Made by a program: the position numbers and the translations under genes
Part shown: positions 3,566 through 61,906 of the stretch, one piece after another
How the letters are laid out: every line of letters starts with the position of its first letter
Numbering within the stretch: the stretch's first letter is position 1
Notes under the pieces: generated by a model
What the model was told of the DNA's origin: nothing
What the model saw: only the letters and a program-made list of their open reading frames with translations
The model's database searches: none
Assembly (NCBI GenBank): GCA_026394375.1
Contig: JAPKYJ010000024.1
Coordinates: 35,259-99,258 of the forward strand
DNA from: Methanomassiliicoccales archaeon
Lineage (GTDB): Archaea > Thermoplasmatota > Thermoplasmata > Methanomassiliicoccales > UBA472
Direction of reading: 5' to 3'
DNA length: 64,000 nucleotides

Positions 3566-4666
3566 CTATTCGACCCGCATCATCTTCCATCTTCCCCGGC
3601 CTACCAGGACCTTCCGGTGACCGCGAAGAGAAATGTCGAGTTGAGGGTCCCCGGTGTCCACTCTCAACGTCCGAATGGTGGCGAGCTTGCTCGGCGCGGA
3701 GAGCACGACCAAGTTGTCTTGTCCGGTCATCTTGATGACCGCAGGGGAGATCTGTTGGTTCCCCCTTCCTAAGATGAACCCTTGGGAGCCGATCGGCGTG
3801 ACAACTATCTTGCTCTGAGGATGTCTGTCGAGCGCCCGCAGGATGTCCGTTTCTGTGACGTCCTTCGCCAGCATTCGCCTATTCTGGATGAGATCGACAC
3901 CCAGAAGCGTCTTCTCCAGGCCGATGCGCTGCGCCACGGCAGCCAAGGTCGTGCCAGGTCCGAGAACGTAGAGGGCGGAAGGATCAAGCTTTTCGACGAA
4001 ATACTCCGCTATCTCCTCCTTCTCCTCCTCCACGCTGAGCCCTTCCACCTCCCCTTTGATCGGCTGGACCAGTCTGCGGTCATAGGGCATGAGGAGATAC
4101 CCATAGAGCTTGGCGCTCAGCCTTCCCTGACGATAGGCTTCCTCGTCAATGTCCATGACCTCCGCTTCCCGGAGCTGGAGCTTGGTTCTCAGGTGGTTAG
4201 AGAGCAGGGCACCAGCGTCCCTAGCAGAGTTGGCGAAGACCGCGGAATGCATCTTGACCCCGGAAGGCACGCCTATCACCGGCATCGACGTGCCGATAGC
4301 ATCGAGCAGATCTCTGGCCGTGCCATCCCCTCCTGCGAACAGAAGCAACTCCGCCTTTCTATCCAAGAACCGTCCGCAAGCCTGCATCGTGTCCTTGGCA
4401 CTGGGATCATCTGGAGTGATATAGACCACTTCATGACCAATGCCCAGGGAGCTGAGCGCATTCTCCCCCATTGGCCCTCCGCACGTGATGATCTCCGCTT
4501 GCGTTAGGTCCCCGGCGGACGCCAATGCTGTTCGCATACGGTCCTCCGCCATTGGCTTCGCACCTCTATGGACAGCTTCGCGTATGACATCGTCTCCATC
4601 GGTTCCTTTGAGCCCCACGCTCCCGCCCATGCCCGCGATGGGATTGATGAGGACGGCCAAACGCAT
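3566..4666 (-). CDS. ATP-NAD kinase-like protein (AcoX/COG3199 type)
   Basis: 366 aa. N-terminus MRLAVLINPIAGMGGSVGLKGTDG plus the GGDGT motif (LLFAGGDGTARD). Confidence 0.7.
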   Translation of the reverse strand: MRLAVLINPIAGMGGSVGLKGTDGDDVIREAVHRGAKPMAEDRMRTALASAGDLTQAEIITCGGPMGENALSSLGIGHEVVYITPDDPSAKDTMQACGRFLDRKAELLLFAGGDGTARDLLDAIGTSMPVIGVPSGVKMHSAVFANSARDAGALLSNHLRTKLQLREAEVMDIDEEAYRQGRLSAKLYGYLLMPYDRRLVQPIKGEVEGLSVEEEKEEIAEYFVEKLDPSALYVLGPGTTLAAVAQRIGLEKTLLGVDLIQNRRMLAKDVTETDILRALDRHPQSKIVVTPIGSQGFILGRGNQQISPAVIKMTGQDNLVVLSAPSKLATIRTLRVDTGDPQLDISLRGHRKVLVGRGRWKMMRVE

Positions 4667-4753
4667 GCGGCTTGATTCCCTTGGTATGTAATAAGTGTGC
4701 AGCCGCGAAAGCTGTCTCTGTCCGACGTCGTTCAGATCAGAAAAGGTAGGGTG

Positions 4754-4775
4754 CGCGGGCCGGAATGGGCCCGCG
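4754..4775 (-). terminator. GC-rich hairpin followed by a T4 run downstream of the ftsZ-like gene
   Basis: CGCGGGCC (4754-4761) pairs perfectly with GGCCCGCG (4768-4775). On the minus strand the hairpin is followed by CCTTTTC. Confidence 0.3.
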
Positions 4776-4801
4776 GAGGTCTGAAAGGCAGGTGTTTCTC
4801 T

Positions 4802-5611
4802 CTAGCGCAGCATCAACGGATCGCCCAACCCTCCACCCACGTCCTTGTCATCCATCTCACCGATGGAGGCGTGGATGAGCTCTGCTTCGGGGGTGGCGAG
4901 CGGCGATAGTCCGCACATATCCTCCTCGTCGATCTTCTGCACCATCTCCTCGATCTCCGGGGTGATCTGACTGATGAACGACTCACCAATCTGCAGGCAA
5001 AGCGAGTCAATGATCTTGATGATGGAACGCTCCATCACCGCAAAGGCCTCCGAGATCGGACTGTCTCCCGCGAACTGCAGCAGACGATCGTTGTCAAGCA
5101 CCACCGTGGTCTCGGTGACCTCACGCAGCCTGCGAATGCCCTCGCTCGCCTTCTTCAACCTCTCGGTCTCGTATGAGAACGGGTTGATGGCGATCGCGAA
5201 CGTCACCGCATCAAGCTCCTTGGACACCTCGGCGATGATTGGCGCTGCCCCGGTCCCGGTGCCGCCGCCCATCCCTGCCACTATGATGACGATGTCACTG
5301 CCATCCAGGACCTGCTTGAAGGCGTCCCTCGCCCTCTCGGCGCAGTACTCCCCCACCTCGGGGAAGCCGCAAGCGCCCAAGCCTTGAGTGATGTCCTTTC
5401 CTATCAATACCTTCTTGCTCGCTTCGATACTATCCAGCTTCTTCTCGTCGGTATTGACAGCGACGGTCTCCACTCTGGTCCTGCAGTCCTCGTATATCCT
5501 TTGCACCACGTTGTTCCCGGCACCACCGCACCCAACTACCGTAATCTTGGGCTCGATCATGCCCTTGCTGAGCATCGTCACGATCTGCTCAGTTCTTGCG
5601 CTCTTGTCCAT
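4802..5611 (-). CDS. FtsZ/tubulin-family GTPase, N-terminal domain only (short FtsZ paralogue)
   Basis: 269 aa. Contains VVGCGGAGNNVV and the tubulin signature GMGGGTGTGAAP. Homology stops after helix H7. No T7 loop or C-terminal subdomain is present, and the tail is acidic. The gene ends at a TAG. Confidence 0.8.
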   Translation of the reverse strand: MDKSARTEQIVTMLSKGMIEPKITVVGCGGAGNNVVQRIYEDCRTRVETVAVNTDEKKLDSIEASKKVLIGKDITQGLGACGFPEVGEYCAERARDAFKQVLDGSDIVIIVAGMGGGTGTGAAPIIAEVSKELDAVTFAIAINPFSYETERLKKASEGIRRLREVTETTVVLDNDRLLQFAGDSPISEAFAVMERSIIKIIDSLCLQIGESFISQITPEIEEMVQKIDEEDMCGLSPLATPEAELIHASIGEMDDKDVGGGLGDPLMLR

Positions 5612-5731
5612 GTCCCCAGGCCTCCCGGTCTATCTTTCAGGAACAGGTGACCTAACGGTTCGTTGAAACCGTGCACCCCATCCCTTCTGCCCAGCAACCT
5701 GCCAGACAGCCCAACTTTCGTCCTTGCCGCT

Positions 5732-6100
5732 CTAGGGGAGCATCTTGACCGCGTCCCGCGCCTCGAGCACCCTCTTCTTCATCTCTTCCAGGTACTCCGG
5801 CTTGAGGAACTCCTTCCGGACCGTCTCCTCGATCGCCCCACCGACGGAGTTGTAGACGCCTTCTCGCACCATCGCTTGGACGACGAAGAGCGCAGCCCTT
5901 GGCAGCTCCACCGTCACACGGTTGCCCATCTCCTCTGACACCGATGATACTTGTGCCCCTTCAATGAACGCGCGGATCGCCATTCGGGCGAGCTGCGATC
6001 TCGAAGCGAATTCCGGACGCTTCTCTATGAAGCTGTCCAGAAGCTCGAGGTCTTCCGGCTCTAGCCGAAGGGTTATTCTCTCTCCGTCCATTGTTCTCAC
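5732..6100 (-). CDS. ribbon-helix-helix (CopG/CdrS-like) DNA-binding protein with two RHH-like repeats
   Basis: 122 aa. ERITLRLEPEDLELLDSFIEK..RSQLARMAIRAFIE fits a beta-alpha-alpha RHH. A second RHH-like unit is NRVTVELPRAALFVVQAMVREGVYNSVGGAIEETVRKEF. The gene lies immediately upstream of the ftsZ-like gene. Confidence 0.7.
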   Translation of the reverse strand: MRTMDGERITLRLEPEDLELLDSFIEKRPEFASRSQLARMAIRAFIEGAQVSSVSEEMGNRVTVELPRAALFVVQAMVREGVYNSVGGAIEETVRKEFLKPEYLEEMKKRVLEARDAVKMLP

Positions 6101-6140
6101 CAGTGTCCGCAGCGCAGACTGTCATATGAATGTCTTACCC

Positions 6141-6156
6141 GAATATATAAATATTT
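6141..6156. promoter_or_regulatory. TATA-like box in the divergent RHH/leuS intergenic region
   Basis: The sequence GAATATATAAATATTT is an AT island in an otherwise GC-rich region. It is about 45 nt from the RHH start codon and is flanked by four GTCAT repeats. Confidence 0.3.
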
Positions 6157-6293
6157 GCGTCATTGTCATACGAAGTCATACTGAGCCGAACATTAGCCTC
6201 CCGGCACAATCACCAAAATCACGTCACGGGATGAAAAACGACCACCGAAACCCTATTTATCAGCCACCCTCATAACCGGGGAAAGGTAATCTG

Positions 6294-9176
6294 ATGGCTG
6301 ACGACTGGTCTCACATCGAGGCAAAATGGCAGGAGCAATGGTATTCCGCCAAACTCAACGAGTCGAACCCAGACGGTCGCCCCAAGTTCATGATCATCTT
6401 CGCCTATCCAGGCGTGACCGGCTATTTGCACGTCGGCCACATGCGGGGATACACCTATGTGGATTCAATCGCCCGATACAAGCGAATGACCGGATTCAAC
6501 GTGCTCTTCCCGGTTGGCACTCATGCCACAGGCAACGGCGCCATAAGTCTGGCCAAGCGCGTGCGCAACAACGACCGGCAAACCATCGAGTACCTCCTTT
6601 ACAACGGCTGCCCCGAGGACAGACTGGAGGAACTGCAGGACCCCATCAAGGTGGTCAAGTTCTTCAACGAGGTCTACGTGAACGACTACTGGCGTCGCTT
6701 TGGATTCCTGGCCGATTGGCGTCGCTTCACCTCTACCATCTATCCAGAATATGGCAAGTTCATCCAATGGCAGTTCCGCAAGTTGATGGAGAAAGGACTT
6801 CTCATCCAGAAACCGTATTTTGCGCCAGCCTGCGTGTCCTGCGGACCGGTGGCTATCGATGCTTCCGAGACCGACCTTCAACGTGGAGGCAATGCCGAGA
6901 CGCAGGAATACACCCTGCTCAAGTTCAGATGCGGCGACATGTACCTCATGGCGGCCACCCTGCGTCCGGAGACGGTCTACGGACAGACCAACTTCTGGAT
7001 CAATCCGGACGTCTATTACGCCAAAGTGAGGAAAGGGGACGATACCTGGGTCATCAGCCAACCGGCGCTGGACAAGCTTCGCTATCAGATGGACGATCTA
7101 GAACAAGTGGGCACAGTCAATGGCCGTGATCTGGTCGGGATGAAATGCATCGCGCCGGTCATCCACCGCGAGATCATGGTGCTTCCTGCTTCCTTCTGCG
7201 ACCCCAACGTGGGGACGGGACTGGTGACGAGCGTGCCCTCCGACGCACCGGACGATTGGATCGCTCTCAAGAACATCCAGGACGACCCAGAAACCATGGC
7301 CAAGTTCGGACTCGACCCTTCTGAGGTTCGGGCAATCGTTCCCATCGCCATCATCGAGACCAAAGGATGGGAGCCCCTGCCGGCCGTGGAGATCGTGGAG
7401 AGGATGGGCATCAAGAGGTCGGGGGACCTTCAGCTCCTGGAGGCGAAGAAGGAGATATACAAGGCTGGCTTCCACACCGGGAAGATGAATTCCAATTGCC
7501 AGGAGTTCGCGGGCATGCCCGTGGAGACGGCCAAGGAGAAGATCCGTGCGATGATGCTCTCGGCTGGCGAAGCGGCCCTGTTCTACGACCTTTCGGAGGA
7601 GGTCATATGCCGTTGCGGGGGCAAGGTCGTCATCCGTAAAGTCCCTGACCAATGGTTCATCGACTATGCCAATCCCCTGCTTACCTTGGAGAGCAAGGAG
7701 CAGGCCAAGAACATGCACATCATGCCCCAAGAATACTCTCAGAACATCGGCGGGGTGTTGGATTGGTTCCGGGAGAGAGCCTGCGTGAGACAGGGCAACT
7801 GGCTCGGCACACATTTCCCATTCGACGAGAAGTGGATCATCGAGGCCATTTCCGATTCCACGCTATACCCTGCATTCTACCTGATATCCCATTTCGTTTC
7901 CAGGGGCGAGGTGCAAGCGGAACAGCTGACGGAAGAGGTCTTGGACCATGTCTATCTGGGAAGGGGGCTGAGGGAGGAGGTGGCAGAGCGAAGCGGCATC
8001 GCCAGCACCACTCTGGAGGCCATGCGGGCAGAAGTGGAGTACTGGTACCCGCTGGACATCAATCTGGGTGGCAAGGAGCACATGACGGTGCATTTCCCCG
8101 CCTTCCTCATGAATCATGTAGCGATCATGGACAAGAGGCATTGGCCCCAGGGGATACTGGTCCATTGGTACATCGTTGGAAAGGGGGGGAAGATATCCAA
8201 GTCCAAGGGCGGAGCTCAACCGATACCTGGTGCGGCCGAGCGCTTCGGCGTGGACTCCATGCGCTTCTACTACACGCACATCGCCTCTCCCTTCGCGGAT
8301 GTGGAATGGGAGGAGGAGGCGGTCGAGAACTACAAGGGGCGGATCGACCGGATCATGTCCACGGTCGCCGAACTGGATCGCCTTGAGTGCCTGGAGGAGC
8401 TCACGGATGCCGATCGCTGGTTGCTCTCCCGGGCTAACACTCGCATCGTGGAAATCCACGACTGCATGAAGGACTACGACCTGCGCACCCTGGCCAATAC
8501 CATCTATTTCGAGATGTTCAACGACGTGCGCTGGTATTCCCGGCGGGGGGGCTGCAACGGCGAGGTCGCAAAACGCGTCCTGGACATATGGGTGCGCTGC
8601 ATGACCCCGATAACCCCACACCTGGCGGAGGAGCTGTGGTCGAGAATCGGATCGAAAGGACTGGTCTCTGCGGAGGAATTTCCACGAGTTCGTCTAGGTG
8701 AAGTGGATCGCCAGGCGGAGGAGGCGGAGGAGTTCCTTCGTTCGGTCTTAGATGACATCAACGAGATCCTCAAGGTCACGGGCATCAAGCCAAAGATCGT
8801 GCACCTCTACACCTCCCCAGAATGGAAATCAAGGGTATGCCTCAAAGCGCTTGACATGGCCAGAGGGAAGCATCTCAACGTGCCCAATCTCACGAAGGCG
8901 GTCATGAGCGACGAGGAGATCAAGAAGCGGGGCAAGGAGGCGGCAGACTTCGCCCGCCGAAAGGCCGAGGACCTCATGAAGCGTTCTTCGGCAGAGCTGG
9001 AAAGGCTGAGCGTTCTCTTCGACGAGGTACGCTATCTCATGGAGGCGGCCCCATTCCTGGCGGCGGAAATTGGCTGTGACATTCTCGTTCACAGAGCGGA
9101 CGATCCTGAGGCTCCGGACCCGCAGCGCAAGGCCAGGGGAGCGCAGCCCAGACGCCCTGCGATCTACATCGAGTGA
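6294..9176 (+). CDS. leuS: leucyl-tRNA synthetase (archaeal type)
   Basis: 960 aa. HIGH-type motif (YLHVGHMRGY), KMSKS-type motif (KISKSKG), and a CP1 editing domain region. Confidence 0.95.
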   Translation: MADDWSHIEAKWQEQWYSAKLNESNPDGRPKFMIIFAYPGVTGYLHVGHMRGYTYVDSIARYKRMTGFNVLFPVGTHATGNGAISLAKRVRNNDRQTIEYLLYNGCPEDRLEELQDPIKVVKFFNEVYVNDYWRRFGFLADWRRFTSTIYPEYGKFIQWQFRKLMEKGLLIQKPYFAPACVSCGPVAIDASETDLQRGGNAETQEYTLLKFRCGDMYLMAATLRPETVYGQTNFWINPDVYYAKVRKGDDTWVISQPALDKLRYQMDDLEQVGTVNGRDLVGMKCIAPVIHREIMVLPASFCDPNVGTGLVTSVPSDAPDDWIALKNIQDDPETMAKFGLDPSEVRAIVPIAIIETKGWEPLPAVEIVERMGIKRSGDLQLLEAKKEIYKAGFHTGKMNSNCQEFAGMPVETAKEKIRAMMLSAGEAALFYDLSEEVICRCGGKVVIRKVPDQWFIDYANPLLTLESKEQAKNMHIMPQEYSQNIGGVLDWFRERACVRQGNWLGTHFPFDEKWIIEAISDSTLYPAFYLISHFVSRGEVQAEQLTEEVLDHVYLGRGLREEVAERSGIASTTLEAMRAEVEYWYPLDINLGGKEHMTVHFPAFLMNHVAIMDKRHWPQGILVHWYIVGKGGKISKSKGGAQPIPGAAERFGVDSMRFYYTHIASPFADVEWEEEAVENYKGRIDRIMSTVAELDRLECLEELTDADRWLLSRANTRIVEIHDCMKDYDLRTLANTIYFEMFNDVRWYSRRGGCNGEVAKRVLDIWVRCMTPITPHLAEELWSRIGSKGLVSAEEFPRVRLGEVDRQAEEAEEFLRSVLDDINEILKVTGIKPKIVHLYTSPEWKSRVCLKALDMARGKHLNVPNLTKAVMSDEEIKKRGKEAADFARRKAEDLMKRSSAELERLSVLFDEVRYLMEAAPFLAAEIGCDILVHRADDPEAPDPQRKARGAQPRRPAIYIE

Positions 9177-33336: not shown

Positions 33337-33350
33337 AGAACACAGGAAGT

Positions 33351-33660
33351 GCTAGGCCGCAGAGGTTGCCGCCTGGTCCCGCGCATGTGATCCAGCCACC
33401 TTCTCAGCCCCGCCCCCCTTCGAGCGCCGGTAGTCCAGGGTAAGGCTGCTCCCGTCAGGGCCTGACCCGTTCTCCCTGATCAGGGCCAGGGGCGCCGCCC
33501 TCCAGCTGCGCCACGAGACCGCCACCGGCCCCGAAGGACAGAGCCTCATAGTCGGCAGCTGGGCATGAACGGTTCCAGTTACGTCGCCCCCTGCTGTCAC
33601 CCCCGTTGTCGACGGTTTACGGTGTACAAGGACACGCCGAACGTCCCGGTCAAGCCTAGC
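33351..33660 (+). ncRNA. signal recognition particle RNA (7S/SRP RNA)
   Basis: About 310 nt and GC-rich, with no credible ORF. The 5' GCUAGGC pairs with the 3' GCCUAGC. There is an Alu-like UGUGAUCCAGCCAC (compare human UGUAGUCCCAGCUAC). A helix-8-like CCGAAGGACAGAGCC (compare 4.5S CCGGAAGGAAGCAGCC) is closed by CCAGCUGC/GCAGCUGG. The ends are approximate. Confidence 0.7.
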
Positions 33661-33772
33661 GAGTCCCGATTGCGCTACCATGCTATTAATACCTATGTCG
33701 CCTGGGCCATCTGGCCCTTGACCTTCCGCTCCACGCACAATCGGTCCATGTGATTAAAAAGGAGGCGAACGG

Positions 33773-51420: not shown

Positions 51421-51495
51421 TGGTGGACAAGGGGGGATTCGAACCCCCGGCTTCCGCCTTGCGAAGGCGGCGATCTTCCGCTGATCTACTTGCCC
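51421..51495 (-). tRNA. tRNA-Ala (anticodon CGC), CCA encoded
   Basis: Manual cloverleaf: GGGCAAG-TA-GATC-AGCGGAA-GATC-G-CCGCC-TTCGCAA-GGCGG-AAGCC-GGGGG-TTCGAAT-CCCCC-CTTGTCC-A-CCA. It has the G3:U70 alanine identity pair. Confidence 0.9.
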
Positions 51496-55717: not shown

Positions 55718-56587
55718 ATGACGGAATTGTTGGAGGAACTAGACCAAAAACGACAATTCAACAACAACGAGGCGGAGAAGCACAGACGACTTCGTGATGA
55801 ATTGAACGAGCAGACGAAGCAGTGGGTACAGAAGCGGGACGAGCTGAACGCCAAAGTGCGTTCATTGGTGGAAGAGGCCGCGAAGAAGCGCGAGACCCGA
55901 GACTCCTTGAACGTGCATGTGCGCCAGGTCAAAGCCGAGCGCGACGTTTGGAACAAGAAGGTCAACGAGCTTAACGACAAGGTGGGAGAGCTCAAGAAGA
56001 CTCAGCTGCCGCGGGAAGGCCCCCCTGTTTCTAAGATGAAGAAGGACCTGAAGGCGCTTGAGTTCCGACAGATGACTTCCACCCTGACGGTGGAGAAGGA
56101 AAGGGAACTGATCGAGGAGATGCAGGACCTTGACAAGCTGATAAAGGAGCGGGAGAAGCAGCTAGAAGCGAATGACTCGATCCGCTCCGTCATCAAGGAG
56201 CTCCGCGAGGCCAAAGAGAAAGCCGAGTCGAACCACCGAGCGGTGGGCGAGCTCGCTGAGAAGGCGCAGACGGAGCATGATGAGATGATCAAGCTCTACG
56301 AGCAGGCGGACGCCATGAGGAAGGAGGCGGACGAGGCTCAGGAGAAGTTCATCGAGACCAAGCTCAAAGCGGACGATGAGCACAAGAGGCACATCGACAG
56401 CATCCGCCAAGTGCATGATTTCGACAAAATCCTCACCGGTCTTAAGCAGAAGGCGCGCAAGGCACGGAAGAGGAAGGAAGAGACGCAGGCCATGAAGGAG
56501 GCTGAGGACATCTTCGACAAGTTCAAGAAGGGAGAGAAGCTCAGCACCGATGACCTCATGTCATTGCAGAGGTCTGGCTACCTATAG
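55718..56587 (+). CDS. archaeal coiled-coil protein (COG1340-like)
   Basis: 289 aa. Heptad-rich Glu/Lys/Arg composition along almost the whole length. Confidence 0.7.
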   Translation: MTELLEELDQKRQFNNNEAEKHRRLRDELNEQTKQWVQKRDELNAKVRSLVEEAAKKRETRDSLNVHVRQVKAERDVWNKKVNELNDKVGELKKTQLPREGPPVSKMKKDLKALEFRQMTSTLTVEKERELIEEMQDLDKLIKEREKQLEANDSIRSVIKELREAKEKAESNHRAVGELAEKAQTEHDEMIKLYEQADAMRKEADEAQEKFIETKLKADDEHKRHIDSIRQVHDFDKILTGLKQKARKARKRKEETQAMKEAEDIFDKFKKGEKLSTDDLMSLQRSGYL

Positions 56588-56718: not shown

Positions 56719-56792
56719 GGGAAGGTCTGGGCTAGTTTTCAGAGTGCATCCCATCCCTTCTGATCAGGCTAGCCCTTCCCACCCCTTTTTTC
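56719..56792 (+). ncRNA. candidate small structured RNA (promoter-to-T7 unit)
   Basis: TTTAAATA (56689-56696) lies about 25 nt upstream. The bipartite outer stem is GGGAA/TTCCC (56719-23 / 56776-80) plus GGGCTAG/CTAGCCC (56729-35 / 56769-75). The inner stem is TCAGA/TCTGA (56739-43 / 56759-63). The unit ends in a T7 run at 56786-56792. There is no ORF. Confidence 0.3.
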
Positions 56793-56853: not shown

Positions 56854-58194
56854 GTGGTGCTTGAAGGCCTGGGGCGATCTCTGCGGGACGCGCTGAAGAA
56901 GGTCGCCAACGCCAGCAGCGTGGACGAGAAGCTGGTGAAGGAGGTCACCAAGGATATCCAGAGGGCGCTGCTGCAGGCCGATGTGAACGTGAAGCTCGTG
57001 CTCGAAATGACCAAGGAGGTCGAGCGCCGCGCGTTGACGGAAAAGCCACCGGCGGGCATGGCGGCCAGGGAGCACGTGGTGCGGATCATCTACGAGGAGC
57101 TGGTGAAGGTGTTGGGCGAGAAAAAGGCTCTGCCCCTCTCCAAACAGACCATCATGATGGTCGGTCTCTACGGCCAAGGCAAGACGACCACCTCCGGCAA
57201 GTTGGCCCGATACTTCCATAAGAAGGGATTGAAGGTCGGCCTGGTGGCCGCGGACGTGCACCGGCCGGCGGCCTATGAGCAGCTGAGGCAGATCGGGGAG
57301 CAGATCGGGGTGCCGGTCTTCGGGAACCAAGAGGAGAAGGACGCTGCCCGGATAGTGACGGAGGGCATAAGGCACTTCGAAGGCAGCGACGTCATCATAA
57401 TCGATACTTCGGGACGGCACGCGCTAGAGAAAGACCTTATCGATGAGGTCAAGAAGGTGGCGGAGATCGCCAAACCGAACGAGCGCATATTGGTGCTCGA
57501 TGCTTCGACCGGTCAGCAGGCCGGTCCGCAGGCCCAGGCGTTCCACGATGCGATCGGGGTGACGAGCGTGATACTCACCAAGCTCGACGGCACGGCCAAG
57601 GGCGGTGGGGCTTTGAGCGCGGTCGCCCGGACGAAGGCGCCCATCGTTTTCATCGGGGTCGGGGAGCACTTGGAGGACCTGGACCCTTTCAATCCTGAGC
57701 GCTTCATATCTCGGTTGTTAGGAATGGGCGACATCCAGACCTTGCTGGAGAAGGCCAAGGAACAGATGACCGAGGAGGAAGCCTTGGAGACGACCAAGAA
57801 GATCATGTCCGGGCGCTTCACCCTCAAGGAGATGTACGAGCAGATGGAGATGCTCACCAACATGGGACCGCTGAAGAAGCTGCTCTCCATGCTGCCCGGC
57901 ATGCCGGGCATGTCTGACAAGATCGACATCGAGGAGTCGCAGAAGCGCCTCGGCACCTACCGCATCATCATGGACTCCATGACCGACGAGGAGATGGAGA
58001 ACCCCCGCCTCATCAAGTCCTCCCGCGTTCTTCGCATAGCCAAGGGGGCAGGGGTGGACCCTAAGGAAGTCCGCTCCCTTCTGCACCAATACAATGACAG
58101 CAAGAAGGCGGTCAAGGGGCTCATGGGCAACCGCAAGCTCCGCCGGCAGCTGATGAAGCAGTTCGAGTCTGGGGAGATGGGGCTGAAGCCATGA
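56854..58194 (+). CDS. srp54: signal recognition particle protein SRP54
   Basis: 446 aa. Contains GLYGQGKTTTSGKLA, DTSGRH and TKLDGTAKGG, plus a Met-rich M domain. Confidence 0.95.
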   Translation: MVLEGLGRSLRDALKKVANASSVDEKLVKEVTKDIQRALLQADVNVKLVLEMTKEVERRALTEKPPAGMAAREHVVRIIYEELVKVLGEKKALPLSKQTIMMVGLYGQGKTTTSGKLARYFHKKGLKVGLVAADVHRPAAYEQLRQIGEQIGVPVFGNQEEKDAARIVTEGIRHFEGSDVIIIDTSGRHALEKDLIDEVKKVAEIAKPNERILVLDASTGQQAGPQAQAFHDAIGVTSVILTKLDGTAKGGGALSAVARTKAPIVFIGVGEHLEDLDPFNPERFISRLLGMGDIQTLLEKAKEQMTEEEALETTKKIMSGRFTLKEMYEQMEMLTNMGPLKKLLSMLPGMPGMSDKIDIEESQKRLGTYRIIMDSMTDEEMENPRLIKSSRVLRIAKGAGVDPKEVRSLLHQYNDSKKAVKGLMGNRKLRRQLMKQFESGEMGLKP

Positions 58195-61816: not shown

Positions 61817-61906
61817 TGGCGCCGAGGGGGAGATTCGAACTCCCGTGGTGCAGAGCACCACCGGCTCTCAAGGCCGGCGCCGTGATCCGGGCTTAGCTAC
61901 CTCGGC
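61817..61906 (-). tRNA. tRNA-Ser (anticodon TGA), CCA encoded
   Basis: Manual fold: acceptor GCCGAGG/CCTCGGC, anticodon arm CCGGC-CTTGAGA-GCCGG, long variable arm TGGTGCTCTGCACCAC, T arm GGGAG-TTCGAAT-CTCCC, discriminator G, then CCA. Confidence 0.9.

What the first reader, a model, noticed from the sequence alone, without database searches (positions are those of the whole stretch)
4802..6293. Double-RHH gene followed by an FtsZ homologue that lacks the whole C-terminal (T7-loop) domain
The 269-aa product has an intact FtsZ/tubulin GTP-binding domain (GCGGAGNN and GGGTGTG signatures). Similarity ends after helix H7. I find no T7 or synergy loop and no C-terminal subdomain, only an acidic tail of about 60 aa. 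In FtsZ and tubulin polymers, the T7 loop of one subunit completes the GTPase site of the next subunit. A protein of this shape could therefore bind a filament end without activating hydrolysis, acting as a capper or regulator; that role is inference. Reading through the TAG stop adds only 22 unrelated residues. Directly upstream and co-oriented is a 122-aa protein with two RHH-like repeats. An RHH gene preceding ftsZ2 (cdrS/cdrL) has been described in halophilic euryarchaea, and RHH/wHTH plus tubulin-like pairs also form type III partition systems. The upstream spacer carries four GTCAT(A) repeats (6121, 6159, 6165, 6175) around a TATA-like box.
Basis: partly seen in the sequence, partly recalled or inferred. 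Interest (0 to 1): 0.55.

Follow-up and report, generated by a model that had tools for sequence, protein, structure and literature searches.

The report
Conserved half-FtsZ with tandem-RHH partner
This archaeon (order Methanomassiliicoccales) carries an anciently conserved gene pair, a tandem ribbon-helix-helix regulator plus a cell-division FtsZ paralogue that keeps the GTP-binding half and a C-terminal docking tail but has lost the half needed to extend filaments; it probably regulates division, and I found no description of it.

Summary
ORF 4802-5611(-) encodes a 269-aa FtsZ with an intact GTP-binding domain and helix H7. It has no T7 loop and no C-terminal globular domain.

It is not a truncation artefact. 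More than 100 protein clusters of 257-297 aa share this architecture in Methanomassiliicoccales. A second, very distant high-GC archaeal lineage has it too.

In every locus the gene order is the same: divergent LeuRS, then a ~120-aa tandem-RHH gene, then the short ftsZ.

Phylogeny, a T3-loop signature and synteny place the short protein inside the cdrS-linked FtsZ2 group.

After H7 come a predicted helical extension and a disordered tail. The tail carries two conserved short motifs, one of them a terminal peptide resembling the FtsZ C-terminal peptide.

The GTCAT(A) repeats are TATGAC boxes flanking the TATA box. They are conserved in both lineages and are probably the RHH operator.

Most likely mechanism (inferred, not shown): a GTP-loaded subunit that binds the T7 end of FtsZ filaments and blocks elongation, under an autoregulated CdrS-like regulator.

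I class it as a new variant of a known kind.

The parts
4802..5611 (-). Short ftsZ coding sequence (269 aa, TAG stop at 4802-4804)
   Evidence: ORF list. Pfam Tubulin only. More than 100 homologous clusters of 257-297 aa.
4997..5557 (-). FtsZ GTPase domain plus helix H7 (residues 19-205). Nucleotide loops: T1 G27-N34, T2 N53-T54-D55, T3 G79-P84 with the family-specific aromatic F83, T4 G113-G121, T5 P144-F145-E148, then N174-D175, F190 and E194.
   Evidence: PDB and TIGR00065 alignments. Invariant columns in family alignment A1. AF2 pLDDT ~90 and FtsZ superposition at rmsd 1.5-2.2 A.
4913..4996 (-). Predicted helical extension of H7 (residues 206-233). It has no counterpart in FtsZ and replaces the T7 loop and C-terminal domain.
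   Evidence: AF2 predicts a single helix over residues 186-233, with pLDDT falling from 82 to 66. No T7 motif. tblastn alignment is noise after H7.
4805..4912 (-). Disordered tail (residues 234-269) with two conserved short motifs: PEAELIHAS (residues 241-249, nt 4865-4891) and the terminal peptide GDPLMLR (residues 263-269, nt 4805-4825).
   Evidence: pLDDT below 50. Both motifs are conserved in Methanomassiliicoccales and in the distant lineage (...PPETVQASW...GFIGLR). Full-length FtsZ2-type proteins end in GID[FI][IV][RQN].
5671..5689 (-). Invariant 19-nt core CAGAAGGGATGGGGTGCAC in the RHH-ftsZ spacer. It contains an ATG that opens a variable short ORF starting MGCT.
   Evidence: Conserved in all 10 protein-ascertained close loci, in deep loci L014 and L015, and in a cdrS-ftsZ2 spacer in L017. 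About 25 distant-lineage loci carry it in the same position. No Rfam match. No conserved enclosing hairpin.
5621..5626 (-). Shine-Dalgarno-like GGGAGG, 9 nt upstream of the short ftsZ ATG. The 120-nt spacer has no TATA box, so the two genes are probably co-transcribed.
   Evidence: Sequence. Aligned spacers of 10 loci. Co-transcription is an inference.
5732..6091 (-). Tandem-RHH gene (119 aa from the ATG at 6091; 122 aa if the GTG at 6100 is used). The N-terminal RHH is nearly invariant. A second, degenerate RHH-like unit and a C-terminal helix follow.
   Evidence: PF01402 over residues 8-47. The CdrS model gives 2 stretches. The family has 37 clusters of 118-145 aa (alignment A2). AF2 shows two helix-helix units plus a C-terminal helix. 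In a distant homologue the second half matches CdrS at E 2e-9.
6121..6180 (-). Promoter with TATGAC boxes. An upstream pair lies at 6175-6180 and 6165-6170, plus ATGAC at 6159-6163. The TATA box TTTATATA is at 6144-6151. A downstream pair lies at 6132-6137 (TAAGAC) and 6121-6126 (TATGAC), over the expected transcription start.
   Evidence: Sequence. The same arrangement is found in 8 orthologous promoters while the rest of the spacer diverges. TATGAC/GTCATA boxes also flank the TATA box in the distant lineage. This is the only paired-box site in the 64-kb window.
6294..9176 (+). Divergently transcribed leucyl-tRNA synthetase, the conserved neighbour of the module in both lineages.
   Evidence: Pfam and NCBIfam leuS_arch. 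Synteny.
3566..4666 (-). NAD-kinase-like gene downstream. It is a conserved neighbour only within Methanomassiliicoccales. In this genome it is in frame with the short ftsZ ORF across the TAG.
   Evidence: Pfam NAD_kinase N and C domains. Synteny. Absent from distant-lineage loci. Read-through frame.
56719..56785 (-). Second copy of the 19-nt core (56744-56762), displayed in the apical loop of a long hairpin. It lies between a 289-aa coiled-coil gene and the SRP54 gene and is antisense to both.
   Evidence: Exact match. Sequence. About 45 metagenome loci show the same geometry. Flanks pair far better than shuffled flanks, mean z -3.8, in 29 of 32 sequences.

Best explanation
WHAT IT IS
The locus is an old duplicate of the archaeal cdrS-ftsZ2 cell-division operon in which both genes were remodelled.
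- The RHH regulator became a ~120-aa tandem-RHH protein.
- The FtsZ2 paralogue lost its globular C-terminal domain, including the T7 catalytic loop.
- It kept the complete GTP-binding N-terminal domain, helix H7, a flexible linker and a terminal docking peptide.

PROPOSED MECHANISM (inferred)
1. The RHH protein binds the TATGAC boxes that flank the TATA box and cover the transcription start. In this way it autoregulates a bicistronic RHH-short-ftsZ transcript.
2. The short FtsZ binds GTP but cannot hydrolyse it alone, and it cannot offer a T7 face to another subunit.
3. Its GTP-bearing 'top' face can accept the T7 face exposed at the growing 'bottom' end of a full-length FtsZ filament, or the T7 face of a free FtsZ monomer.
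4. Once bound, nothing can add below it, so it caps or sequesters. This would shorten filaments and raise their turnover.
5. Hydrolysis triggered by the partner's T7 loop would release it again.
6. The conserved tail motifs would dock it to a ring or membrane partner, such as SepF or another factor.

SHOWN VERSUS INFERRED
- Shown: the architecture, its conservation, its affiliation with FtsZ2, and the conservation of the promoter boxes.
- Inferred: DNA binding by the RHH protein, GTP binding, and every protein-protein step.
For: Architecture:
- all show the GTPase domain plus H7 and nothing corresponding to the C-terminal domain.

Selection on the nucleotide pocket:
- T1, T2, T4, T5, N174 and the H7 Phe and acidic residue are invariant or nearly so in 28 sequences down to 42% identity.

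Not an artefact:
- More than 100 clusters of 257-297 aa.
- 53 short proteins form one NJ clade.
- Complete 256-258-aa ORFs in a lineage whose LeuRS is only 36-38% identical.

Origin from FtsZ2:
- The closest full-length proteins have a cdrS-type RHH gene upstream.
- They share the aromatic T3 residue, GG(F/Y)PE, where FtsZ1 has GGNP.
- The same GGGATGGGATGC core occurs in a cdrS-ftsZ2 spacer (L017).

Tail:
- The terminal peptide occupies the same position and has the same character as the FtsZ2 'GID' C-terminal peptide. Pende et al. describe that peptide as the SepF-binding motif (PMC8178401).

Targets exist:
- Methanomassiliicoccaceae genomes encode full-length FtsZ homologues and SepF elsewhere (Pende Supplementary Data 1).

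Capping logic:
- FtsZ subunits add at the bottom end, and a subunit with a blocked bottom face, FtsZ-MciZ, caps it (bioRxiv 10.1101/2020.02.25.965095).

Regulator:
- RHH hits.
- Promoter footprint in both lineages.
- CdrS is a transcription factor for division genes (PMC7439475; PMC8406309).
Against: - No interaction was tested, and no multimer modelling was available.
- An isolated N-terminal domain supplies only part of the longitudinal interface and cannot undergo the inter-domain switch that strengthens FtsZ contacts (PMC5414002). Affinity for filament ends may therefore be low.
- The tail lacks the signature Asp of the GID motif, so SepF binding is uncertain.
- Some deep family members have degenerate T1 or T4 motifs. 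GTP binding may not be universal.
- The NJ tree rests on 187 columns, and exact-clade bootstrap is only 2/100 with a mean Jaccard of 0.90.
- Co-occurrence with full-length FtsZ was checked only through a published table covering three Methanomassiliicoccaceae genomes. It was not checked for the window's own genome or for the distant lineage.
- A long helix after H7 could instead mediate self-association or some unrelated function.
Confidence: 0.4

Rival explanations
1. Neofunctionalised GTP switch or scaffold. The short FtsZ no longer touches FtsZ filaments. It self-associates through the long H7 extension and recruits partners through its two tail motifs in a GTP-dependent way, for a division-related or unrelated process.
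For: - A 48-residue helix is predicted where the C-terminal domain used to pack.
- Two tail motifs are conserved across very distant lineages.
- The family has its own T3 and T5 peculiarities: a one-residue deletion and loss of the Gly of 'FEG'.
- Relatives carry other C-terminal additions, such as a SIR2-like domain in P0190 or unknown extensions in P0253 and P0162. This shows the isolated GTPase domain is reused as a module.
Against: - Confidence in the helix is only moderate, and no oligomer model was possible.
- The residues kept invariant are those of the FtsZ nucleotide or 'top' face.
- Linkage to a CdrS-like regulator and origin from FtsZ2 both point to division.
Confidence: 0.25
2. Co-regulator of the RHH protein. 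The short FtsZ senses GTP, or free FtsZ, and binds the tandem-RHH protein through its tail. This would modulate transcription of the operon and other division genes, in the way the TubZ tail binds TubR-DNA in type III systems.
For: - The ~120-aa RHH gene and the short ftsZ are strictly adjacent in every locus examined, including deep branches.
- The RHH protein has an extra C-terminal helix.
- The tail motifs are conserved.
Against: - Adjacency is inherited from cdrS-ftsZ2, where no such complex is reported (PMC7439475, PMC8406309).
- No interaction evidence exists.
- No repeat array resembling a centromere was found. The locus is chromosomal.
Confidence: 0.12
3. Split FtsZ. The missing C-terminal domain is encoded by a separate gene, and the two polypeptides reassemble into a functional FtsZ.
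For: From memory, not verified here: the FtsZ N- and C-terminal domains fold independently.
Against: - No FtsZ_C-like sequence lies anywhere in the 64-kb window (tblastn with full-length P0127).
- None is among the called neighbours in related loci.
- H7 continues as a helix with no T7 loop.
- The linker and terminal peptide are attached directly to the N-terminal half.
Confidence: 0.04
4. Decaying pseudogene, or a sequencing or assembly truncation of ftsZ2.
For: Only the shape of the single gene, seen in isolation.
Against: - The short length is conserved in more than 100 clusters and in two distant lineages.
- ORFs are intact, GTP-binding motifs are invariant, and the tail motifs are conserved.
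- Only 135 nt separate the stop codon from the next gene.
Confidence: 0.01

Closest known systems
Archaeal cdrS-ftsZ2 operon (CdrS RHH regulator plus FtsZ2; Halobacterium and Haloferax)
   Same: - A small RHH gene lies immediately upstream of, and co-oriented with, an FtsZ2-type gene.
- The GTPase domain is 45-50% identical to FtsZ2-type proteins and carries the same aromatic T3 residue.
- The RHH protein matches the CdrS model.
- The GGGATGGGATGC core also occurs in one cdrS-ftsZ2 spacer (L017).
   Different: - The FtsZ lacks T7 and the whole C-terminal domain, so it cannot act as the upper subunit in a filament.
- The RHH protein is a ~120-aa tandem form, scoring 28-37 bits against the CdrS cutoff of 100.
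- The two genes are separated by a 107-136-nt spacer, compared with 3 nt in H. volcanii.
- The terminal peptide lacks the GID Asp.
FtsZ bottom-end cappers and sequesterers: the MciZ-FtsZ complex, SulA, engineered bottom-face mutants and N-terminal-domain fragments
   Same: The predicted net effect is the same: a unit with an intact GTP or 'top' face and an unusable bottom face adds to the growing end, or binds monomers, and blocks further addition.
   Different: - Those are small peptides or unrelated proteins that bind FtsZ, or laboratory mutants.
- Here the capper would be a dedicated, anciently conserved FtsZ paralogue with its own regulator and tail.
- The dominant-negative effect of isolated N-terminal domains (Osawa & Erickson 2005; Redick 2005) is recalled from memory. 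Neither paper could be read here.
Truncated or accessory FtsZ paralogues in bacteria (for example the third FtsZ homologue of Agrobacterium tumefaciens)
   Same: An extra FtsZ-family gene with an incomplete domain set sits beside a canonical FtsZ. The abstract seen says only two of the three homologues localise and polymerise.
   Different: - The details of the Agrobacterium truncation are from memory and were not read.
- That case is lineage-restricted, with no known partner gene.
- The archaeal family is deeply conserved, keeps a complete GTPase domain plus tail, and is always paired with an RHH gene.
Tandem-RHH (single-chain pseudo-dimer) DNA-binding proteins such as F-plasmid TraY
   Same: Two RHH units sit in one polypeptide, and the target sites in Methanomassiliicoccales are direct repeats at 10-12-bp spacing.
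   Different: - The TraY comparison is from memory.
- The AF2 monomer model did not form an intramolecular beta-ribbon (pTM 0.34).
- In the distant lineage the start-site boxes form a palindrome. A domain-swapped dimer is therefore equally possible.
TubZ-TubR type III plasmid partition
   Same: A small DNA-binding protein gene lies next to a tubulin-superfamily GTPase gene whose product has a C-terminal tail.
   Different: - TubZ has both tubulin domains and polymerises, and the system is on plasmids or phages with a centromere.
- PDB TubZ hits are weak (E 1e-5, compared with 1e-47 for FtsZ).
- This locus is chromosomal and syntenic with LeuRS.

Membership tests
FtsZ (TIGR00065 equivalog / canonical FtsZ) | N-terminal tubulin/FtsZ GTPase domain with GGGTGTG and the T1-T6 loops | tested here: met
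   PF00091 at E 2e-41. PDB FtsZ at E 6e-47. Motifs invariant in the family.
FtsZ (TIGR00065 equivalog / canonical FtsZ) | T7 synergy loop (NxDxxD) and the C-terminal globular domain (PF12327) | tested here: not met
   No FtsZ_C hit at E <= 0.1. The profile match stops at position 202 of 353. No T7 regex match. No structural match beyond H7.
FtsZ (TIGR00065 equivalog / canonical FtsZ) | Whole-protein score above the curated cutoff | tested here: not met
   228.1 bits against a cutoff of 295.2.
Archaeal FtsZ2 subfamily | Groups with FtsZ2 rather than FtsZ1 or bacterial FtsZ | tested here: inconclusive
   In the NJ tree of 231 GTPase domains the short clade sits inside the group that holds all cdrS-linked proteins and excludes M. 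jannaschii FtsZ1. Exact-clade bootstrap is 2/100 with a mean Jaccard of 0.90. The shared aromatic T3 residue supports the placement. No ML tree with curated FtsZ2 references was possible.
Archaeal FtsZ2 subfamily | RHH (cdrS/parD) gene immediately upstream | tested here: met
   An RHH gene lies upstream in the window and in all related loci. Here, however, it is a tandem form.
Archaeal FtsZ2 subfamily | C-terminal 'GID' peptide (SepF-binding) | tested here: not met
   FtsZ2-type proteins end in ...GID[FI][IV][RQN]. The short proteins end in ...DPLMLR, PELLSR or GFIGLR, without the Asp. The position and hydrophobic-plus-Arg character are retained.
CdrS (NF058555) | Single ~60-aa RHH protein scoring above the curated cutoff | tested here: not met
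   The window protein is 119-122 aa and scores 28.4 bits against a cutoff of 100. The distant homologue scores 37.1 bits, on its second half.
CdrS (NF058555) | Sequence-specific DNA binding and control of division genes | not testable with these tools
   Only indirect evidence is available: conserved TATGAC boxes around the TATA box and transcription start.
CdrL | RHH plus a C-terminal double zinc ribbon; restricted to Halobacteria | tested here: not met
   No zinc-ribbon domain or Cys clusters are present in the sequence. Definition taken from PMC7439475.
TubZ/TubR type III partition | Two-domain polymerising TubZ, on a plasmid or phage, with a centromeric repeat array | tested here: not met
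   TubZ PDB hits reach only E 1e-5 to 7e-5. There is no C-terminal domain. The chromosomal synteny with LeuRS is conserved.
CetZ | Closest similarity to CetZ structures or sequences | tested here: not met
   CetZ chains 4b45, 4b46 and 3zid score E 6.5e-12 to 1e-6, compared with 6e-47 for FtsZ.
Known RNA families (Rfam 15), for the 19-nt core and hairpin | Match to any covariance model | tested here: not met
   No relevant hit at E <= 10 in 4600-6400. At gathering thresholds the whole window yields only the SRP RNA and two tRNAs.

The most novel reading that the evidence does not exclude
Archaea of at least two distant lineages encode a dedicated, genetically hard-wired FtsZ filament-end capper. 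It is a half-FtsZ that uses GTP as a timer, docks through a C-terminal-peptide-like tail, and is expressed from an autoregulated tandem-RHH operon. Its leader shares an invariant 19-nt recognition element with a conserved hairpin next to the SRP54 gene, which would imply an unrecognised post-transcriptional or DNA-level circuit linking division control to that second locus.
Probability: 0.25. Interest if true: 0.8.

Novelty: new variant of a known kind. Interest (0 to 1): 0.62.

Why it matters
FtsZ-based division in archaea is poorly understood. Known regulators of filament dynamics come from bacteria, for example MciZ, SulA, MinC and MipZ.

A naturally occurring FtsZ paralogue that keeps only the nucleotide face plus a docking tail would be a new class of endogenous regulator. 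The principle is a 'dominant-negative paralogue'.

It would also provide a ready-made tool to probe the polarity and end-dynamics of archaeal FtsZ1 and FtsZ2 filaments.

The family is currently annotated as 'cell division protein FtsZ' or 'hypothetical protein'. The short-FtsZ contig of one surveyed genome is absent from the FtsZ list of a major archaeal FtsZ/SepF survey. Counts of FtsZ paralogues in Thermoplasmatota may therefore be misread.

The tandem-RHH partner and its conserved TATGAC operator give a directly testable regulatory unit.

The invariant 19-nt core, shared with an SRP54-adjacent hairpin, is an unexplained element that merits its own study.

Tried and rejected
- **C-domain remnant after the stop.** The tblastn alignment with P0127 runs past the TAG but is noise, and only 135 nt remain before the next gene. 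Rejected.
- **Programmed TAG read-through giving an FtsZ-NADK fusion.** The path is open and in frame in this genome but not conserved. Judged incidental.
- **Tandem FtsZ-FtsZ proteins P0121/P0122 as the cognate full-length partners.** They are from Altiarchaeota, and P0123 is from a green alga. Irrelevant here.
- **Structured-RNA model for the ftsZ leader.**
  - The RNAalifold outer helix showed no compensatory changes and did not generalise to the distant lineage.
  - Fold z-scores were weak.
  - The flank-pairing test was negative.
- **Fixed-column covariation test for the SRP54-adjacent hairpin.** Negative on the MAFFT alignment. Only the register-free flank test supports the hairpin.
- **The core as a conserved micro-ORF.**
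  - It starts MGCT, and the fourth codon varies synonymously.
  - Length and frame vary widely, and the 9 nt upstream of the ATG are equally invariant.
  - Left unresolved.
- **Naming the distant lineage.** Cluster look-ups returned no organism names.
- **CdrS binding motif.** It is given only in a figure, so it could not be compared.
- **Osawa & Erickson 2005, Redick 2005 and the Erickson review.** Not held. Statements about N-terminal-domain dominant negativity are from memory.
- **Literature searches for a described C-domain-less archaeal FtsZ.** Nothing found.
Full report
**1. What is in the sequence**

The window's minus strand carries a 269-aa ORF (4802-5611). Upstream of it, after a 120-nt gap, is a 122-aa ORF (5732-6100, GTG start).

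The 269-aa product has a Pfam Tubulin/FtsZ GTPase domain over residues 22-181 (E 2e-41). There is no FtsZ_C hit.
- The TIGR00065 ftsZ model aligns only its positions 16-202 of 353. The score is 228 bits, below the 295-bit cutoff.
- Solved FtsZ structures match residues 19-206, best to M. jannaschii FtsZ1 at E 6e-47. The match stops there.
- No T7 motif is present.
- The closest full-length relative aligns convincingly only to H7.
- Only 135 nt separate the stop codon from the next gene.

One detail is wrong. Read-through of the TAG stays open for 45 codons and enters the downstream NAD-kinase-like ORF in frame. Orthologues mostly use TGA, are out of frame, or have intervening stops. I therefore regard this as incidental.

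**2. Not an artefact: a conserved family**

A search of 5.8 billion proteins returned more than 100 clusters of 257-297 aa. All have PF00091 only, at 45-98% identity. Wherever a source gives a taxon it is Methanomassiliicoccales, apart from one entry labelled only 'Euryarchaeota archaeon'.

In an alignment of 28 members, down to 42% identity, the following are invariant or nearly so:
- the T1 loop (G27-N34)
- the T2 loop (N53-T54-D55)
- the T4 loop (GGGTGTG)
- the T5 loop (P144-F145-E148)
- N174, and the H7 Phe and acidic residue

From established knowledge of FtsZ structures, these are the nucleotide-contacting elements. GTP binding is therefore very probably retained, though this is an inference.

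An exhaustive HMMER search of 1.84 billion representatives found further short proteins at 34-50% identity.
- In a neighbour-joining tree of 231 GTPase domains, all 53 short proteins fall in one clade of 57.
- Four of the five extra members are also short. The fifth, P0253 (407 aa), has an unrelated C-terminal extension.

**3. Structure**

An AlphaFold2 model built from the family alignment has mean pLDDT 76.7 and pTM 0.70.
- The GTPase domain is confident, at pLDDT about 90.
- H7 continues as one helix over residues 186-233, with confidence falling from 82 to 66.
- Residues 233-269 are disordered.

Foldseek against the PDB returns only FtsZ. About 180-200 columns align at rmsd 1.5-2.2 A, which corresponds to the N-terminal domain plus H7.

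**4. Origin**

The closest full-length proteins examined are each preceded by a 62-75-aa RHH/ParD-type gene. This is the published cdrS-ftsZ2 arrangement (PMC7439475; 'ftsZ2 frequently with parD' in PMC8178401). The proteins are:
- P0127
- P0326, from Geoglobus acetivorans
- P0346, from a Thermoplasmata MAG

The short family and these proteins share an aromatic residue in the T3 loop, GG(F/Y)PE. M. jannaschii FtsZ1 has GGNP at that position.

In the tree, the short clade nests in the large group that contains every cdrS-linked protein and excludes FtsZ1. Exact-clade bootstrap is weak, at 2/100 with a mean Jaccard of 0.90. The FtsZ2 affiliation is therefore supported but not proven.

**5. The tail is not just acidic filler**

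Two short motifs are conserved.
- The first has the form P-x-x-[ELV]-[LIV]-x-A-[SA]. In the window protein it is PEAELIHAS, residues 241-249.
- The second is a terminal peptide. In the window protein it is GDPLMLR. Elsewhere in the family it is PELLSR or PQFLTR.

Both recur in a lineage that is only 32-44% identical (...PPETVQASW...PVAFDxxGFIGLR).

Full-length FtsZ2-type proteins end in ...GID[FI][IV][RQN]. Pende et al. describe this as the SepF-binding C-terminal peptide.

The short proteins keep the position and the hydrophobic-plus-Arg character, but they lack the Asp. The simplest reading is an internal loss of the globular C-terminal domain with retention of the linker and a diverged terminal peptide. 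This too is an inference.

**6. The RHH partner and its promoter**

The upstream protein probably starts at the ATG at 6091. NCBI annotates a 100%-identical 119-aa form.
- Its first 45 residues are a significant RHH (PF01402, E 8e-5) and are almost invariant in 22 homologues.
- The second half is a degenerate RHH-like unit. Evidence for this:
  - Half-versus-half hhalign gives a local E of 0.005, in register.
  - Sub-threshold RHH_1 and RHH_8 hits appear in 2 of 4 members.
  - AF2 shows two helix-helix units plus a C-terminal helix.
  - In a distant homologue the CdrS model matches the second half at E 2e-9, while the first half matches the aCcr1 RHH family.
- It is not CdrL, which carries a zinc ribbon and is restricted to Halobacteria.

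- One pair, at 10-bp spacing, lies just upstream of the TATA box (6144-6151).
- A second pair, TAAGAC and TATGAC, lies downstream, over the expected transcription start.
- The same layout holds in eight orthologous promoters whose remaining spacer sequence is not conserved.
- TATGAC/GTCATA boxes also flank the TATA box in the distant lineage, often as a palindrome at the start site.
- TATGAC is not enriched in the window overall: 24 observed against 15 expected. This is, however, the only paired-box site in the 64 kb.

Autoregulation by the RHH protein is the natural inference, but it is untested.

**7. Depth of conservation**

In nine Methanomassiliicoccales genomes and contigs the gene order is the same: LeuRS (divergent), then RHH, short ftsZ, a NADK-like gene, and a convergent POR gene.

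A metagenome scan with a 16-mer from the spacer recovered about 25 loci from a different, high-GC (63-69%) lineage. In these loci:
- LeuRS is archaeal-type, but only 36-38% identical over its full length.
- The RHH protein is 33-41% identical.
- The FtsZ is a complete 256-258-aa ORF with no T7 loop.
- The order is again LeuRS (divergent), RHH, core, short ftsZ.

Two deep loci found through the protein alone, L014 and L015, show the same pair.

The module is therefore ancient. I could not name the distant lineage.

**8. An unflagged element**

The 107-136-nt RHH-ftsZ spacer has no TATA box. It ends in a Shine-Dalgarno-like GGGAGG. It contains an invariant core, CAGAAGGGATGGGRTGCAC, at window 5671-5689 on the minus strand. 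The core is found in:
- all close loci
- L014 (exact) and L015 (one variant)
- the distant lineage, often preceded there by extra GGGATG repeats
- the spacer of a canonical cdrS-ftsZ2 pair, as TAGGGATGGGATGCGC in L017

A second exact 19-mer lies at 56744-56762 on the minus strand. It sits between a 289-aa coiled-coil gene and the SRP54 gene, antisense to both. About 45 metagenome loci repeat that geometry.

At the SRP54 site the flanks pair far better than shuffled flanks. Mean z is -3.8, with 29 of 32 distinct sequences below -2, and divergent members use different stem sequences. The core is therefore displayed in a hairpin loop. A fixed-column covariation test on a sequence-based alignment was negative.

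At the ftsZ leader no enclosing hairpin is conserved (mean z -0.5).

Rfam has no match.

The core contains an ATG that opens a variable ORF starting MGCT. Whether protein, RNA or DNA-level recognition explains the conservation is unknown.

**9. Genomic and literature context**

The window contains no other FtsZ gene.

Pende et al.'s Supplementary Data 1 gives the following:
- Ca. Methanomassiliicoccus intestinalis has three FtsZ-family proteins plus SepF.
- MAG PNBI01 has six FtsZ hits, all on other contigs. Its short-FtsZ contig, PNBI01000174.1 (L010), is not listed.
- Methanomethylophilaceae have no FtsZ, SepF or ESCRT-III.

Full-length FtsZ targets therefore exist in this family.

I found no paper describing a C-domain-less archaeal FtsZ. 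The library searched is incomplete, so this is absence of evidence only.

**10. Mechanism**

In a protofilament, the T7 loop on a subunit's bottom face completes the GTPase site on the top face of the subunit below. This is established FtsZ/tubulin knowledge.

Subunits add mainly at the bottom end. A subunit whose bottom face is blocked caps that end, shortening filaments and raising turnover (Corbin & Erickson preprint).

The short FtsZ has the top face and no bottom face. The best-supported model is therefore a GTP-loaded cap, or a binder of the monomer's T7 face, positioned by its tail and supplied by an autoregulated CdrS-like operon.

My confidence in this model is 0.4. The main rival is a neofunctionalised GTP switch or scaffold that uses the H7 extension and the tail motifs (0.25). 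The others are an RHH co-regulator role (0.12), a split FtsZ (0.04) and an artefact (0.01).

**11. Verdict**

The finding is real. It is best classed as a new variant of a known kind: an FtsZ2-derived half-FtsZ with a remodelled CdrS-type partner. Its function remains inferred.

Noticed in passing
window 5671-5689 (-): An invariant 19-nt core, CAGAAGGGATGGGRTGCAC, lies in the RHH-short-ftsZ spacer. It is conserved across lineages whose proteins are only ~35% identical, and it also occurs in one cdrS-ftsZ2 spacer (L017). It has no Rfam match and no conserved enclosing hairpin. Extra GGGATG repeats precede it in the distant lineage.
   Followed up: partly
window 56719-56785 (-), core at 56744-56762: A second exact copy of the 19-nt core sits in the apical loop of a long hairpin, between a 289-aa coiled-coil gene (55718-56587) and the SRP54 gene (56854-58194), antisense to both. 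The same geometry appears in ~45 metagenome loci. The flank-pairing z-score is -3.8. It may be an unannotated small RNA or a shared binding site.
   Followed up: partly
window 5671-5683 and 56744-56756 (-); loci L004-L137: The ATG inside the core opens a short ORF beginning M-G-C-T at both sites. The fourth codon varies synonymously (ACG, ACT, ACA, ACC). The ORF is 7 to more than 40 codons long, and in some loci it is in frame with the FtsZ ORF. Whether it is coding or non-coding is unresolved.
   Followed up: partly
window 4667-4804 (-): The TAG stop of the short ftsZ is followed by 45 sense codons, and the frame then runs into the NAD-kinase-like gene. From memory, this order decodes TAG as pyrrolysine. 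The arrangement is not conserved in orthologues, so it is probably incidental.
   Followed up: yes
P0190 (562 aa, metagenome); P0253 (407 aa); P0162 (363 aa): FtsZ GTPase domains with no FtsZ_C domain but other C-terminal parts. P0190 carries a SIR2-like domain (PF13289). P0253 and P0162 have unassigned extensions. The isolated FtsZ N-terminal domain therefore appears to be reused as a module.
   Followed up: no
L002 6001-9670 (Candidatus Altiarchaeum hamiconexum, GCA_009995055.1): An 826-aa protein made of two complete FtsZ units (Tubulin + FtsZ_C, twice) is followed directly by a third full-length FtsZ gene and preceded by a 67-aa gene. Similar fusions occur in other Altiarchaeales (P0122), and P0123 comes from the alga Closterium.
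   Followed up: partly
Pende et al. 2021, Supplementary Data 1 (PMC8178401): Methanomethylophilus alvus and a Methanomethylophilaceae MAG are listed with no FtsZ, SepF, FtsA or ESCRT-III at all, whereas Methanomassiliicoccaceae have 3-6 FtsZ hits plus SepF. Whether the short FtsZ follows the same split was not checked.
   Followed up: no
window 33350-33661 (-); 51424-51495 (-); 61820-61906 (-): An archaeal SRP RNA (155.8 bits) and two tRNA genes are the only Rfam families that reach gathering thresholds in the window.
   Followed up: no
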